DNA from: Lingula anatina
Taxonomy: Eukaryota > Animalia > Brachiopoda
NCBI GenBank assembly: GCA_051362555.1
Contig: CM120647.1
Location: forward strand, 1,550,001-1,614,000
Length of the DNA stretch: 64,000 bases
Direction: 5' to 3'
In this document: one piece after another, positions 33,349-62,300 of the stretch
Numbering within the stretch: position 1 is the first letter of the stretch
Layout of the letters: every line of letters begins with the position of its first letter
Made by a program: the position numbers and the translations under genes
Notes under the pieces: model-generated
The model's input: the letters and a program-made list of their open reading frames with translations, nothing else
The model's database searches: none
What the model was told of the DNA's origin: nothing

Positions 33349-36300
33349 ATGGACACGACGGAAATTGATCAGAGGTTGAGGGAGATACAGAGAGAGTATC
33401 TGGACTTTCTGGATGACGATGTAAGTAAATGTAGCCCGTGTAATATTGTGGTAAATGGACTTAAAGCCCACGTTCAACTGCATGTATGTTCCACGCTGTG
33501 TTAATCTGTTATGTTAGGAGATCGGAGAAGAAAAATAAAAGTCCCACGTCATATAGTTACCGAGACCGTTAGCTGAAATTTGATGATAGTTTTCACGTAC
33601 ATATTGCAATTTTTATATCTTTTTAATTGAAAACTTTCGTGACTGTCAATAATAACAAGGTGTCAATTGTAAATTCAGTGTAATGATTGCCATCCAATTT
33701 ATATGTACAGTGCCTTTGTTGCTGTTCTGGGTTCATTTGAGAAAGTAACTTTCAAAGCCTGCTTCTCAGTTTGTGTTCCATTTCATTCATGCCAAGTGGA
33801 TAGGAACACAAATGACATTTGTTTGTGTCCATTTTTCAAATGATCATAAAGGATTCCCAAAATCTGCTTATTCTAGTTTCTAGCACTGTTTCCGTCATTT
33901 ATAGATTCTTGATCCATTTTTTAGGTTGATCAAGGCATATATACTGCCAAGGTGAAAGACATGATATCCAACAACAATGTCAGATTAACGGTGAATATTA
34001 ATGATCTGAGGAGAAAGATGCCCGCCAGATCTGCTGCGTGAGTTGAAGATATTACTTACATTGTGCTGTATTTATTGCAAATGGCTGATTTCTTTGGTCA
34101 CTGATCTTAATTTGTTTATTTATTTACTTGAAATATATTTGTTGGTATTTTTGTGCAGAAGAATGTTATATGAAAGTGTCCAGTATTAAACTCAATTAAT
34201 TTTTATCTCCTTATGTTAGTGTTAGTACAATATAATTTAATATAATATTTGTTAATGTGAATGACTGACATATTCAAGGGACCAAAATGTAGAGATGTTG
34301 GACTAAAACTTTGTATGCCTCGTCTCGAAATGAAGAATAAATCTGGATTTTATCTCTCATCCACAAACACACCAACACGTACTTATGAAATTCTTACACT
34401 CCTTCATTGATAAAATGTACACTGTTTGATTGAAGATTTTTTCATATGTCATTCTTTCTTCTCGCAGTGTCATTGAGAACTCGTTTGAAGACCTGGTAGC
34501 TTTCCAGCGAGCCTTGAAGGAATTTGTCGCCTCAGCTGATCCTGTCTATAGCAAACAGCATGATGACTTCTTTGTGGGCTTTGAAGGAAGGTAAGGCTTA
34601 GTTGAAGACTATCTTTAAGGCTATGTTATTAGCCAATTAATTGGGAATATTTAGATCTTTGATATCTCTAAGATTATGTTAGTTATTTTTAAAAGCAAAA
34701 ACCATGAGATGCAATAGAAAATAATGTATTAATTTGTAGACTTCTAGGTGATTTTAACTCTGTATTTCAGTTTTGGCTCCAAACACGTCACACCAAGGTC
34801 ACTGACCTCTCGTTTCCTTGGCAACATGGTTTGTGTGGAGGGCATTGTGACCAAATGTAAGTAGTTACTGGTGAAAGTGATTGCTTTCGAATTTCTTAAC
34901 TACTTACAAGTCAAACGTAATTTGTAAGCACTAGTAGATTAAATTTATTTTCTTAAATGCCAGTGTGACTCCTGAATGTTTCATATGAAAATATTCCATT
35001 CGGGTCTATTCAGAGACAATGTTGTGAGCTCAGATAATTTATGTCTAACTCCCTTGATCAGATACATTAGATGAAAGATTCAAATATCGCCGTGAAAGGA
35101 AGAATTGCACTGATTATATATCATGTAATTACATAGTCTATTAAATGGTTTCCCTGATTTTTGTGTCAGGTTCCCTGGTCCGCCCCAAGGTGGTCAGAAG
35201 TGTCCACTACTGCCAGGCAACTAAGAAGACCATTGAGAGGAAGTACTCTGACATGACCTCACTGGAGGCTTTCCCCACTAGTGCTGTCTACCCTACCAAG
35301 GTGAGGAGTATTCATTATTTGTAATATTAATGATAATACTAAAGATGTATTCAACTCTAAAATTTTACATATAACCAGTACTGTCTACCAACCAAGGTGA
35401 CGAGAAAAAAACTGAAATAATAATAATAATAATAATAATAATAATAATAATAATAATAATAATAATAATGAAGTATTTACTTTTATATTAAGTCTAAAAC
35501 TTCACATAAAAGCATTGCAGTATATAGAATGAAAAAATATATTAATACAAATACCCGTATAGAATGAAAAAAAATATCATGATCCTCATATAGAATAAAA
35601 AAAGAAGAGAATAAAAAAGAAAATTGTTTCAGGATGAAGATGGCAACCCCCTAGAGACAGAGTTTGGGCTGTCCAGCTATAAGGACCATCAGACCTTCAC
35701 CATCCAGGAGATGCCGGAGAAAGCACCTGCTGGTCAGCTGCCTCGGTCAGTGGACATTGTGGTGGATAATGACCTGGTGGACATGTGTAAGGTAAGTGGA
35801 CACTGACCTCTCATTAACCTCTCAATGACCCCTCAATTGCTGAATACTAACCCCAAGGTTCATACAGAATTGAAAAGTCAGTCTTCTGATATAGTGTTAT
35901 AAATTACTGAAGTAAATTTTCTTTAATTTTCTTTAATTTTCTTTAATTTGATTTTAATAACCCTGTTTAAAGTCAGATGCACATGTTGATGGGTAAATAA
36001 CTTTAAAAGTTTGATGACTTAGCATTTTGAAGCATGTGTGGCATTTTTCATCCAACATGGATGAGATTCTTTCTGACTATTGGCTGATATCAGACTTTTG
36101 GGGAGTCAAAAATATCATTGGCAATAACAAGTTTTCTGACTACTTGGTAAAACAGACGTATCATATGTGCACTTTATCATTTCAGCCAGGTGACAGAGTA
36201 CAGGTGGTGGGGACGTACAGATGTCTACCTGGGAAGAAAAATGGATTCACCACTGGGACTTTCAGGTAGGGCTTAATTTATGTTTTTCAGAGATTTGAAC

Positions 36301-59300: not shown

Positions 59301-62300
59301 GATAGCTCTGCCAAACGCTGACGGATCTTTCAACGTCACCCTATTCATGCCATTTGAAAACTTTGAAGCCATACAGACCGAGGAGGATCTGATTGCTTTT
59401 TTTGAGGAGAATTTTCCCGACTCCATTCCACTGTTAGGAGAGTAAGTGTATGTATATTACAAACCAGAGCTATACTAATGTTGAGATCTTTACTTTTTAA
59501 AATCCCACTGATGACTCTGTCTGGCTTTCATTTATGAAAAACATTTGAGCCAAACATTCAACGCGGTTTTTGTTTTAAATCATAAACTAGAACATTTTGC
59601 AACAATAGTCCCTCTTCAGAAAAAATTATTAGAGAATATTATCTTTGAGAGAGAGAGAGAGAGAGAGAGAGAGAAGAGAACAAAGCTGAAAACTGCATTT
59701 TATCAGTGTAAACCAAGCTTGTTCTCTAAATTATAACATGAAAAATTTAATCAAAATTTGGGTATATTTCAGACAAGCCTTAAAGAAGAGCTTCTTCCGT
59801 AACCAGCCCAGGTCTATGATCAGTGTCAAGGTAAACGTGTGAACTGCATCGTGATGATGACATTAAAAACCATCTCACTTCTCAGTCAAATTTTCACCTC
59901 AATTTTCATAAATATTTGAGAAAAACTAGCAGTACAGTCATCATTCTGAGAATAAACCAGTTTTATGCAGCCACCTAGAGCTAAAGTGTCAATATATTAC
60001 TCTGTTACTCACTGAACATCCCTGAAACCGAAACTTGGGAGAAAAATGCAATTAAGTCAGCAAAACGAAAGTTTTTCTCTGCCCTCTGACCTGATGTGGT
60101 TTGTCTGTTGTTTTCAGTGTGGTACGTACCATTACAAAGACAAGGTGGTCCTGATAGGGGATGCTGCCCATGCCATGGTACCTTTCTATGGACAAGCCAT
60201 GAACTGTGTAAGCTGGACTCTATATACCTCAATTAGCCAATTCTTTTTTTTTTTTTTGGGGGGGGGGGGTATCAATTACTGTTGCACAAAATTAGTCCAT
60301 ATTTTTAAAGAAAACTATAGAAGACAATTTGCTTACTAGTACATATTAAATTTGCTTGTTCAATTTAGTAAAAAAAAAAAAAAAAAATTAATGTGTAACA
60401 GTAGTATATTCCTATTAAAATCAGGACCACAACTGTGACAAACATTCTTGTTACTGACCCAGTGCACTTTGATTATTTACTTTTTAAATTTTACATTTGA
60501 CATTTTCCAGGGATTTGAAGACTGCCTTATTTTCAACAATTTGCTGGATAAGTACGATGACGACTTTGGTGAGAATAGGAAATCAGTTTGGGTGGGACAT
60601 GACTGCGCCATAGCAACAAGGCTTAAACTTAGTCTACTTAATTTGAGCCTTTTCTTTCACCATCAATGTACCAAAACCTTCATTTTCTTAAAAAATAGCA
60701 AGCAGGATTTAAATTTCAATCAGGTGGCTTCATTCATACAGCCATGTTGTAACTGTCAGTCCTCCAGGACACAATCAGCGAGACCTTCAAGATATATTCT
60801 TGATTAGTAATTAAAGCATATTTCTATTTCAGGCCAAGTTTTGGCCCAGTTTTCTGCCACCAGAAGCGTGGACGCGCAGGCCATGTCAGACCTCGCCAAG
60901 ATGAACTACATTGAGGTACTAGTATCTAACTACTACGTTCAATAACATTACGAAACCCAAGTCTTCTTCTGAATTCCACTTTTAAACATTGTGCACTCCC
61001 CCCCCCCCCATTTACCCCTGTGCTACATCTTTTCCATTTTGCAAACATTTTAAATCATTTCAAATCCAGTATAAAACGCACAAAAAATGTGTATAAAAAC
61101 ACAACTTACAAACACACAAATAATTGTCTTTTTAACTTCTAGATGCGCTCAGCTGTCAATTCAAAGGGGTTTTACCTGAGGAAAAAAACAGACAGCATTC
61201 TACACTGGCTGATGCCTAAAAAATGGATTCCCTTGTACACCATGGTAACCAGAGATTTCTCACTGAACTCTTCCGATTTTAGTCTTATATGCAGCTTGCA
61301 TATTTTCTCAGTAAAGTTTTGAAAACTTCAGAGAAATAGAGTTAGATGCAGACACTTGTCTGCCTCTAGATGGCTTTGTTTTGTTTGAAAATCACATGCC
61401 TGTCAAAATGTTTTGTAATCCAAGGGCTTAAATTTTAAAGTTGCATTTTTAATCAACAGCTTTTTGCAACATAAATCAAATCGGTAATCTCCCTTCAATT
61501 TTTTTTTTACTTCATAATTCCTCTGAATGTGTAAAAAGTTGCATTTTTCACTGCACAAGCCAAGATAAGTGGTATACGTATATGTCTTTTTTCCAGGTTT
61601 CTTTCTCCTGTACCCGCTATCATCACTGTCTTAAGTGGAGACAGAGACAAGACAAAGTAAGTATCACTTTCTCCTGTACCCGCTATCATCACTGTCTTAA
61701 GTGGAGACAGAGACAAGATACAGTAAGTATCACTTTCTCCTGTACCCGCTATCATCACTGTCTTAAGTGGAGACAGAGACAAGATACAGTAAGTATCACT
61801 TTCTCCTGTACCCGCTATCATCACTGTCTTAAGTGGAGACAGAGACAAGACACAGTAAGTATCACTTTCTCCTGTACCCGCTATCATCACTGTCTTAAGT
61901 GGAGACAGAGACAAGACACAGTAAGTATCACTTTCTCCTGTACCCGCTATCATCACTGTCTTAAGTAGAGACAGAGACAAGATACAGTAAGTATCACACG
62001 TTTTGACAGTTTACCTTACAGTAACCCACTTATTAAAAAAATATATCATTTTCACAAATTTACAAACCTGACGCTGGGGGAGGGAGGAGGGATAAATGCC
62101 ATCTGTGGGTTTTTGAAAAATAATAAAAATGATCCGAGTTGTTGTCAAGGGTCATCATTTTTTACTTCAATTCCACTTTGCAGTCTCTGAAAGGGGAAGG
62201 GATGTCTAGAAAAATGCAACTCTTTGTAGACTTGTAAAAATGATGATAAAACGGACGGTCCCTTACTCTTTATAAACTAGCAACATGAGAAATACTCAAT

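What the first reader, a model, noticed from the sequence alone, without database searches (positions are those of the whole stretch)
35270..61997. Locus-wide pattern: tandem duplications anchored on splice sites (splice-site echoes)
Seen: at least nine junctions in three unrelated genes carry extra copies of the splice site plus the adjacent exon end, always extending into the intron: MCM3 donors 35300 (copy 35377-35400) and 36265 (copy 36362-36402); NNT donors 45129 (x5), 46262 (copy 46205-46223), 55347 (copy 55258-55325), 56033 (about 20-bp units to 55905); NNT acceptors 46413 (x7) and 50730 (x6); KMO donor 61656 (x6). Units differ in length (about 20-130 bp) and sequence, so this is not one repeat family, and comparable non-TE arrays are scarce in the 15-kb exon-free tribbles intron. 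Inference: a mutational process targeted to exon borders (for example co-transcriptional R-loop or spliceosome-linked breaks, or recombination initiated in exons) or tolerance-driven retention, producing decoy splice sites, intron growth and raw material for new isoforms or introns.
Basis: partly seen in the sequence, partly recalled or inferred. Interest (0 to 1): 0.8.

Follow-up and report, generated by a model that had tools for sequence, protein, structure and literature searches.

The report
Brachiopod splice-junction "mirage" repeats
In this stretch of a lamp-shell (Lingula) genome, nine exon edges with their splice signals are copied head-to-tail into the neighbouring intron about three times more often than random placement predicts; this repeat type is already known from lancelets as "mirages", the spare splice signals are likely ignored, and the copies are likely scars of DNA repair between two versions of a gene that match in exons but not in introns.

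Summary
Confirmed, but a known kind of repeat. All nine junction copies are present (MCM3 x2, NNT x6, KMO x1; 9 of 113 modelled junctions). The genome is Lingula (98% protein match). Nine of 17 local duplications span a junction against 2.8 expected (P=4e-4). The 30 extra splice sites keep GT/AG. RNA from two other animals shows almost no depth over the two arrays tested. Short-read contigs hold the arrays, so they are not assembly errors. These are 'mirages', described in amphioxus Adh3, globin, troponin C and PGBD5 genes; human F7 intron 7 is alike. This scan found them before in Lingula and in other genomes. 'Always extending into the intron' follows from geometry and is not a finding. The one new clue: outermost copies differ 8% from the working unit in the exon part but 26% in the intron part, like alleles in this species. 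That favours repair between divergent alleles over R-loops, but does not prove it.

The parts
33349..42234 (+). MCM3 host gene, 19 coding exons
   Evidence: 850-aa open frame from AG/GT model; Pfam MCM in one exon
35279..35404 (+). MCM3 donor 35300 and one decayed copy (22 exon nt; extra GT 96 nt downstream, after 35396)
36230..36408 (+). MCM3 donor 36265 and one copy (36 exon nt, one silent change; extra GT 132 nt downstream)
39114..39301 (+). Old 100-nt duplication starting 10 nt inside the intron after MCM3 donor 39104; next to a junction, not spanning it
44360..63774 (-). NNT (mitochondrial transhydrogenase) host gene, 16 coding exons
   Evidence: 98% to Lingula anatina NNT over 207 aa; Pfam PNTB
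44828..45150 (-). NNT donor 45129 array, 5 units of 64-73 nt (21 exon nt + G-rich intron start)
   Evidence: DNA contig identical over 44471-44932
45949..46092 (-). 34-nt repeats of the pyrimidine tract before NNT acceptor 45943, without the AG; next to a junction, not spanning it
   Evidence: DNA contig identical over 45930-46284
46125..46265 (-). NNT donor 46262 and two extra donors with 2-4 exon nt
46383..46964 (-). NNT acceptor 46413 array, 7 units of 84 nt (53 intron + 31 exon); innermost extra unit is 82 nt
   Evidence: collapsed DNA depth and zero RNA depth over the extra copies
50694..51295 (-). NNT acceptor 50730 array, 6 units of about 110 nt (74 intron + 36 exon)
55258..55407 (-). 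NNT donor 55347 and one copy (61 exon nt, 4 of 5 changes silent; unit 82 nt), abutting a dispersed repeat
55917..56047 (-). NNT donor 56033 array, about 6 degenerate units of 19-21 nt (9 exon nt)
57165..62625 (+). KMO (kynurenine 3-monooxygenase) host gene, nested antisense in the NNT intron 56608-63108
   Evidence: homologues named KMO
61601..61997 (+). KMO donor 61656 array, 6 units of 66 nt (56 exon + 10 intron); units read in frame, stop only in the last

Best explanation
These are head-to-tail duplications of exon edges ('mirages') that sit on splice junctions more often than random placement predicts, likely arise when recombinational repair between two alleles starts in a shared exon and fails where the introns stop matching, and are likely kept because the spliceosome uses only the copy touching the intact exon. 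Shown: the copies, their junction bias in this window, intact GT/AG, presence in short reads, near-absence from RNA at two arrays, and alleles that match in exons but often not in introns. Inferred step 1: a break is repaired from the other allele; synthesis runs from the exon into unmatched intron, is released and rejoined out of register, leaving two exon edges, each followed or preceded by one allele's intron end. Inferred step 2: the doublet expands and homogenises by slippage or unequal exchange like any minisatellite. Inferred step 3: the most upstream donor and the exon-proximal acceptor win, so the extra copies are neutral intron and decay.
For: Junction bias: 9 of 17 duplications vs 2.77 expected, P=3.7e-4; 9 of 14 vs 3.24 without tribbles, P=7e-4; TRF-only list 6 of 13 vs 1.64, P=0.002; 22-mers with a near copy: about 5% at junctions, 0.2-0.3% more than 60 nt into introns (positions not independent). 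Allele-like pattern: outermost copy vs working unit differs at 22 of 266 exon columns but 109 of 415 intron columns; a same-chromosome duplication left to decay predicts about 17% in the exon part (P=4e-5; P=0.009 if the exon is frozen; 8 of 9 sites). Exon-part changes are 13 silent to 11 amino-acid-changing, above the 26% silent share of a decaying copy (P=0.003); at 55347 4 of 5 are silent. Homology edges exist: in run X1 only one haplotype lays at 90% over the array-bearing introns (depth 46-52 at 44617-44924 and 46003-46156) but both over array-free introns (81-123), and run X7 lays on exons but on little of several introns. Tolerance: RNA depth 0 over 46465-46926 in 2 of 2 runs, 0.67 and 0.21 over 44925-45078 against 50.5 and 30.3 on the adjacent exon bin; same behaviour reported for human F7 (PMC1557585) and amphioxus (PMC3087553, PMC3902484). 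Heterology promoting rejection of recombination intermediates: passage in PMC7407515.
Against: The silent excess is not significant if the working exon also drifts at silent sites after a plain duplication (expected 41%, P=0.14). Inner array copies carry amino-acid changes and a stop, so they decay. AT-rich introns (33% GC vs 52% in exons) may simply mutate faster, exon-part limits were set by similarity, and homogenisation can refresh exon parts; all inflate the exon/intron contrast. At 50730 the outer copy is about equally diverged in the exon (7 of 36) and the nearest 25 intron bases (5 of 25), and at KMO the intron part is identical (0 of 10). Intron alignments at 36265, 50730 and 55347 are weak (13, 14 and 26 of 300 shuffles reach them). 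The one-haplotype depth over array introns may be a result of the arrays, not their cause. No copy was matched to a real second allele. The two junction-adjacent duplications contain no exon sequence. Enrichment is lost if junction copies get a threefold weight (P=0.09-0.15). RNA came from other animals that may lack the arrays.
Confidence: 0.5

Rival explanations
1. Duplications arise evenly along the DNA on one chromosome; wholly exonic ones are purged, and those holding exon sequence stay recognisable and expandable longer because the exon part is conserved, GC-richer and less prone to slippage decay. The junction bias is a survival and detection effect.
For: Enrichment is only about threefold and fades with weighting (P=0.017 at weight 2, 0.09 at weight 3). 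Introns are short (180-685 nt in MCM3), so many duplications of 60-130 nt would touch a junction anyway. Silent excess fits this model (P=0.14). The window was selected for the pattern.
Against: The null already removes wholly exonic placements. A frozen exon gives at most about a twofold longer detection time (inference), and the excess survives that. All 5 multi-copy arrays (5 or more units, period 19 or more) outside the 146-bp array span junctions. Exon parts are more conserved than this model predicts.
Confidence: 0.27
2. Breaks or nicks are targeted to exon borders by transcription, splicing or chromatin (R-loops, spliceosome-linked damage, nucleosome edges) and repaired by end joining on the same chromosome.
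For: Junction bias itself; two purely intronic duplications abut splice sites (45949-46092, 39114-39301); the intron after donor 45129 is G-rich on the sense strand. Short tandem duplications from nick or break repair are described in rice (passage in PMC7407515).
Against: Only 1 of 9 sites has a G-rich sense strand by eye. It does not predict exon parts being better conserved than intron parts. No direct test was possible.
Confidence: 0.15
3. The extra sites are functional: alternative donors or acceptors, or splicing regulators kept by selection.
For: 28 of 30 extra sites score at or above the 10th percentile of real sites on a window-trained matrix. KMO units (66 nt) and inner 46413 units (84 nt) read in frame without stops.
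Against: No RNA depth over the 46413 copies and background depth over the 45129 copies. Of 7 sites tested, use of the next extra site would shift the frame or meet a stop at 6 (at 46413 through the 82-nt innermost unit); only KMO is open. Copies accumulate amino-acid changes and a stop. Run X7 appears to lack the two arrays tested.
Confidence: 0.05
4. The arrays are assembly errors.
For: Some arrays are 94-98% identical between units. Run X7 gives no depth over two arrays.
Against: Units carry distinct substitutions and indels. Short-read contigs of run X1 match the window without a difference over 44471-44932 and 45930-46284 and pile up to depth 245 and 135 on the arrays against about 46 per haplotype (X1 may be the source sample, so it checks the assembly, not other animals).
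Confidence: 0.03

Closest known systems
Amphioxus 'mirage' minisatellites (Adh3, globins BflGb6 and BflGb9, troponin C, PGBD5); PMC3087553 and PMC3902484, passages read; the original Adh3 paper was not held
   Same: Tandem copies spanning either exon-intron border, unit lengths differing by locus (10-160 bp there, 19-132 here), many keeping AG/GT, homogenised inner units with more diverged terminal units, no visible effect on the mRNA, several in one gene.
   Different: Host is a brachiopod, not a cephalochordate. Here the junction bias was tested against a null, and terminal copies show an exon-conserved, intron-diverged pattern; PMC3087553 calls the generating mechanism unclear. Copy-number instability, shown in amphioxus, is only suggested here.
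Human F7 intron 7 37-bp VNTR; PMC1557585, abstract and Discussion read
   Same: First unit spans the donor; identical downstream pseudo-donors stay silent because the most upstream site is chosen.
   Different: A single human locus; donors only. Here 7 donor and 2 acceptor cases lie within 27 kb.
Intron gain by tandem duplication of an AG/GT-containing segment (Rogers model, as cited in PMC3087553)
   Same: Local duplication puts new splice signals into an intron.
   Different: No new intron or exon is seen here; exon-intron structure stays intact.

Membership tests
Mirage minisatellite (as described in PMC3087553/PMC3902484) | Tandem duplication whose unit spans an exon-intron boundary of the host gene | tested here: met
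   9 clusters span modelled junctions
Mirage minisatellite | Each array built from its own locus; unit length and sequence differ between loci | tested here: met
   Units 19-132 nt; best cross-unit local score 13 among 36 pairs
Mirage minisatellite | Both 5' and 3' boundaries can be duplicated | tested here: met
   7 donors, 2 acceptors
Mirage minisatellite | Many copies retain AG/GT splice signals | tested here: met
   30 of 30 extra sites have GT or AG; 28 of 30 score within the range of real sites
Mirage minisatellite | Regular splicing is not disturbed | tested here: inconclusive
   RNA depth 0 or background over 2 of 9 sites' arrays in 2 runs; RNA joints were not displayed, the animals differ from the window's haplotype, and the other arrays had no reads laid
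Mirage minisatellite | Length instability between haplotypes or individuals | tested here: inconclusive
   X7 has no depth over two arrays and one X7 contig runs unbroken through the repeated exon start at 46383-46413; X1 depth fits one haplotype. Contigs cannot prove absence
Mirage minisatellite | Concerted evolution inside clusters, terminal units excluded | tested here: met
   Inner units at 46413 and 50730 share derived changes; outermost units are the most diverged in the intron part
Transposon-derived or dispersed repeat family | Shared sequence between loci | tested here: not met
   No shared sequence between units; each matches its own exon
Tandem (mutually exclusive) exon duplication | Complete exon copies with both splice sites | tested here: not met
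   Copies hold only part of the exon; the nearest is KMO, 56 of 60 nt without the acceptor

The most novel reading that the evidence does not exclude
Mirages are captured pieces of other alleles: in highly heterozygous animals exons are the only reliable islands of homology, so allelic repair fails at exon edges and leaves the partner allele's exon end and intron start beside the working one. Heterozygosity itself would then drive splice-junction duplication, intron growth and a supply of ready-made splice sites, explaining why lancelets, sea urchins and brachiopods share the pattern, and it could be tested with any phased genome.
Probability: 0.3. Interest if true: 0.68.

Novelty: new member of a known kind. 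Interest (0 to 1): 0.3.

Why it matters
The repeats themselves are known and probably harmless. Their value is as a test bed: the origin of mirages is stated to be unclear (PMC3087553), and dense cases in a polymorphic brachiopod allow a direct test of whether allelic divergence in introns causes duplication at exon edges, which bears on intron growth and intron gain. Practically, such arrays can mislead gene prediction (an in-frame example sits in KMO; a mis-called exon is described for lancelet PGBD5 in PMC3902484).

Tried and rejected
No whole genome is held, so no genome-wide test. Reads were laid only on 44001-48600; the arrays at 50730, 55347, 56033, 61656 and both MCM3 copies have no read evidence. 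In one search the joints, loose-end and difference tables were dominated by a high-copy repeat at about 47037-47379, so no RNA splice joints were shown, and 512 difference rows were hidden, which prevented matching copy variants to population alleles. No RNA holder was listed by the index; RNA runs came by species label. A search for the Lingula KMO protein, to see whether the Lys/Thr difference in the KMO copies is an allele, returned no Lingula hit among 8. The two amino-acid changes checked against P0001 (at 50730 and 55347) are not in that protein. Breakpoint microhomology was looked at by eye only: 0-5 nt, no clear pattern, not used. Rows dropped: the intergenic inverted element 29718-29891 from the enrichment list; blast hits scoring 13-14 (shuffles give 0-4 of them); the indel-bearing copy at 46497 from the silent/non-silent count (raw count 14:13); site 56033 from the exon/intron divergence test (too short). 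In one search the loosest setting used too-short periods for two merged arrays, so only the stricter rows are quoted. Literature: 8 searches listed no paper on mirages in brachiopods and no genome-wide enrichment or mechanism test; subscription journals are mostly not covered. The Adh3 mirage paper and Gao and Lynch 2009 were not held; supplements of PMC3087553 were not opened. Rejected: one repeat family, transposon origin, whole-exon duplication, assembly error.
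Full report
Setting. The window is animal DNA with short introns. The first coding exon of NNT (63110-63730, minus) is 98% identical to a protein named Lingula anatina NAD(P) transhydrogenase; the next hits are 65% or lower near the top of the list. 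No whole genome is held. I modelled exons by AG/GT ends and open frame: MCM3 (19 exons, 850 aa), NNT (16 coding exons), KMO (13 exons, 435 aa), and an F-box/IBR gene, a TSEN34-like gene, POLR2K and two tribbles-like exons (Pfam hits for 6 of 7 exons; KMO named by homologues). KMO lies antisense inside a 6,501-nt NNT intron. This gives 112-113 junctions.

Observation. All nine sites are real. Exon parts are 22, 36, 21, 2-4, 31, 36, 61, 9 and 56 nt; units are 19-132 nt and unrelated to each other. There are 30 extra splice sites, 19 donors and 11 acceptors; all keep GT or AG and 28 score at or above the 10th percentile of real sites on a matrix trained on this window. Six cases are in NNT, two in MCM3, one in KMO, none in the 22 junctions of the other four genes. 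That copies always run into the intron is geometry: the copy touching the intact exon is the working one.

More than chance? An unbiased self-comparison (gapless scan; gapped blastn; score 15 or more occurred once in 5 block shuffles) gave 17 duplications in gene space. Nine span a junction, two abut one, six do not. With arrays collapsed and wholly exonic placements excluded, 2.77 would span by chance (P=3.7e-4); without tribbles 9 of 14 vs 3.24 (P=7e-4); MCM3 plus NNT/KMO only 9 of 14 vs 3.51 (P=0.0014). Weighting junction placements twofold gives P=0.017-0.038, threefold P=0.09-0.15. A list from Tandem Repeats Finder alone gives 6 of 13 vs 1.64 (P=0.002). By position, 22-mers with a nearby copy make up about 5% at junctions, 0.2-0.3% beyond 60 nt into introns and 0 of 2,863 deep in exons. 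The window was chosen for this pattern, so these P values are not genome-wide.

Real DNA and use in RNA. Reads could be laid on 44001-48600 only. DNA run X1 has contigs identical to the window over 44471-44932 and 45930-46284 and depth 245 and 135 on the 45129 and 46413 arrays against about 46 per haplotype; X1 may be the source sample. Two RNA runs cover the NNT exons but have depth 0 over 46465-46926 and 0.67 and 0.21 over 44925-45078, against 50.5 and 30.3 on the adjacent exon bin and 1.5 and 0 in an ordinary intron bin. These animals differ from the window at many exon sites and may lack the arrays, and RNA joints were not displayed. DNA run X7 has no depth over either array, and one of its contigs runs unbroken through the repeated exon start, which suggests but does not prove presence/absence variation. 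Of seven sites tested, use of the next extra site would shift the frame or meet a stop at six; KMO alone would add 22 residues in frame, untested in RNA.

Mechanism. Outermost copies differ from the working unit at 22 of 266 exon columns and 109 of 415 intron columns; plain duplication and decay predicts about 17% in the exon part (P=4e-5, or 0.009 with a frozen exon). Distinct exon-part changes are 13 silent and 11 non-silent: more silent than a decaying copy alone gives (26%, P=0.003), not more than if the working exon drifts too (41%, P=0.14). The clearest cases are 36265 (1 of 36 exon, intron heavily changed), 46413 (0 of 31 exon, 10 of 44 intron) and 55347 (4 of 5 silent); 50730 and KMO do not show it. 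One search shows the precondition: alleles lay on exons but often fail 90% identity in introns, and in X1 the array-bearing introns are those where the second haplotype is missing. Faster mutation in AT-rich introns, similarity-chosen limits and homogenisation could give the same contrast. I therefore put repair between divergent alleles first (0.5), a survival and detection filter second (0.27), transcription- or splicing-linked breaks third (0.15), function (0.05) and artefact (0.03) last. Expansion into arrays and choice of the exon-proximal site are inferred from known minisatellite behaviour and from F7.

Known systems. [quoted passage not shown] PMC3902484 (passages) adds troponin C and PGBD5. 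PMC1557585 (abstract and Discussion) shows that only the most upstream of the repeated F7 donors is used. PMC7407515 (passages) notes that heterology promotes rejection of recombination intermediates and that break repair makes short tandem duplications. The Lingula cases meet five of seven mirage features, two inconclusive, none failed. Eight literature searches listed no report for brachiopods and no genome-wide test. This scan has unreviewed notes on the same pattern in three other Lingula pieces and in sea urchins, other animals and a protist; these are not independent evidence.

Verdict. A real, moderately enriched cluster of a known repeat type in a phylum where I found no paper on it. 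Interest 0.3. The allele-capture reading is the part worth following: probability about 0.3, interest about 0.68 if true.

Noticed in passing
window 57165-62625 (+) within NNT intron 56608-63108 (-): The whole 13-exon KMO gene is nested antisense in one NNT intron; both enzymes use NAD(P)(H). Conservation of the nesting was not checked.
   Followed up: partly
window 61657-61986: The KMO array reads in frame as 22-residue repeats with a stop only in the last unit, so use of a downstream donor would give an extended protein rather than a frameshift. No RNA laid here.
   Followed up: partly
window 46414-46915: Inner 84-nt acceptor units are an open frame, but the unit next to the real acceptor is 2 nt short, so any upstream acceptor shifts the frame. 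Six upstream acceptors score about as high as the real one, five of them higher, yet RNA does not cover them.
   Followed up: partly
window about 47037-47379 and 55083-55257: High-copy dispersed repeat, MITE-like (contig depth over one million in both DNA runs; 83% identity between the two places). The second copy ends right beside the extra donor at 55265.
   Followed up: partly
window 8303-9732 (within about 8100-10760): Ten 146-bp units inside what looks like a non-autonomous transposon in the tribbles intron; element type not tested.
   Followed up: no
window 29718-29891 and 1804-1950: Short elements with 54-nt and 42-nt inverted arms; the first has internal 16-nt repeats.
   Followed up: no
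window 44001-48600: High allelic diversity: many exon differences between runs, and several introns where other haplotypes do not lay at 90% identity.
   Followed up: partly
P0001: The database Lingula NNT protein is 681 aa and departs from the window's model after the exon ending at 49332, so it looks like a truncated gene model.
   Followed up: no
window 21087-33349: POLR2K (-), an F-box/IBR gene like Emi1/FBXO5 (+; name recalled, IBR by Pfam) and a TSEN34-like gene (-) lie upstream of MCM3; none of their junctions has a copy.
   Followed up: partly
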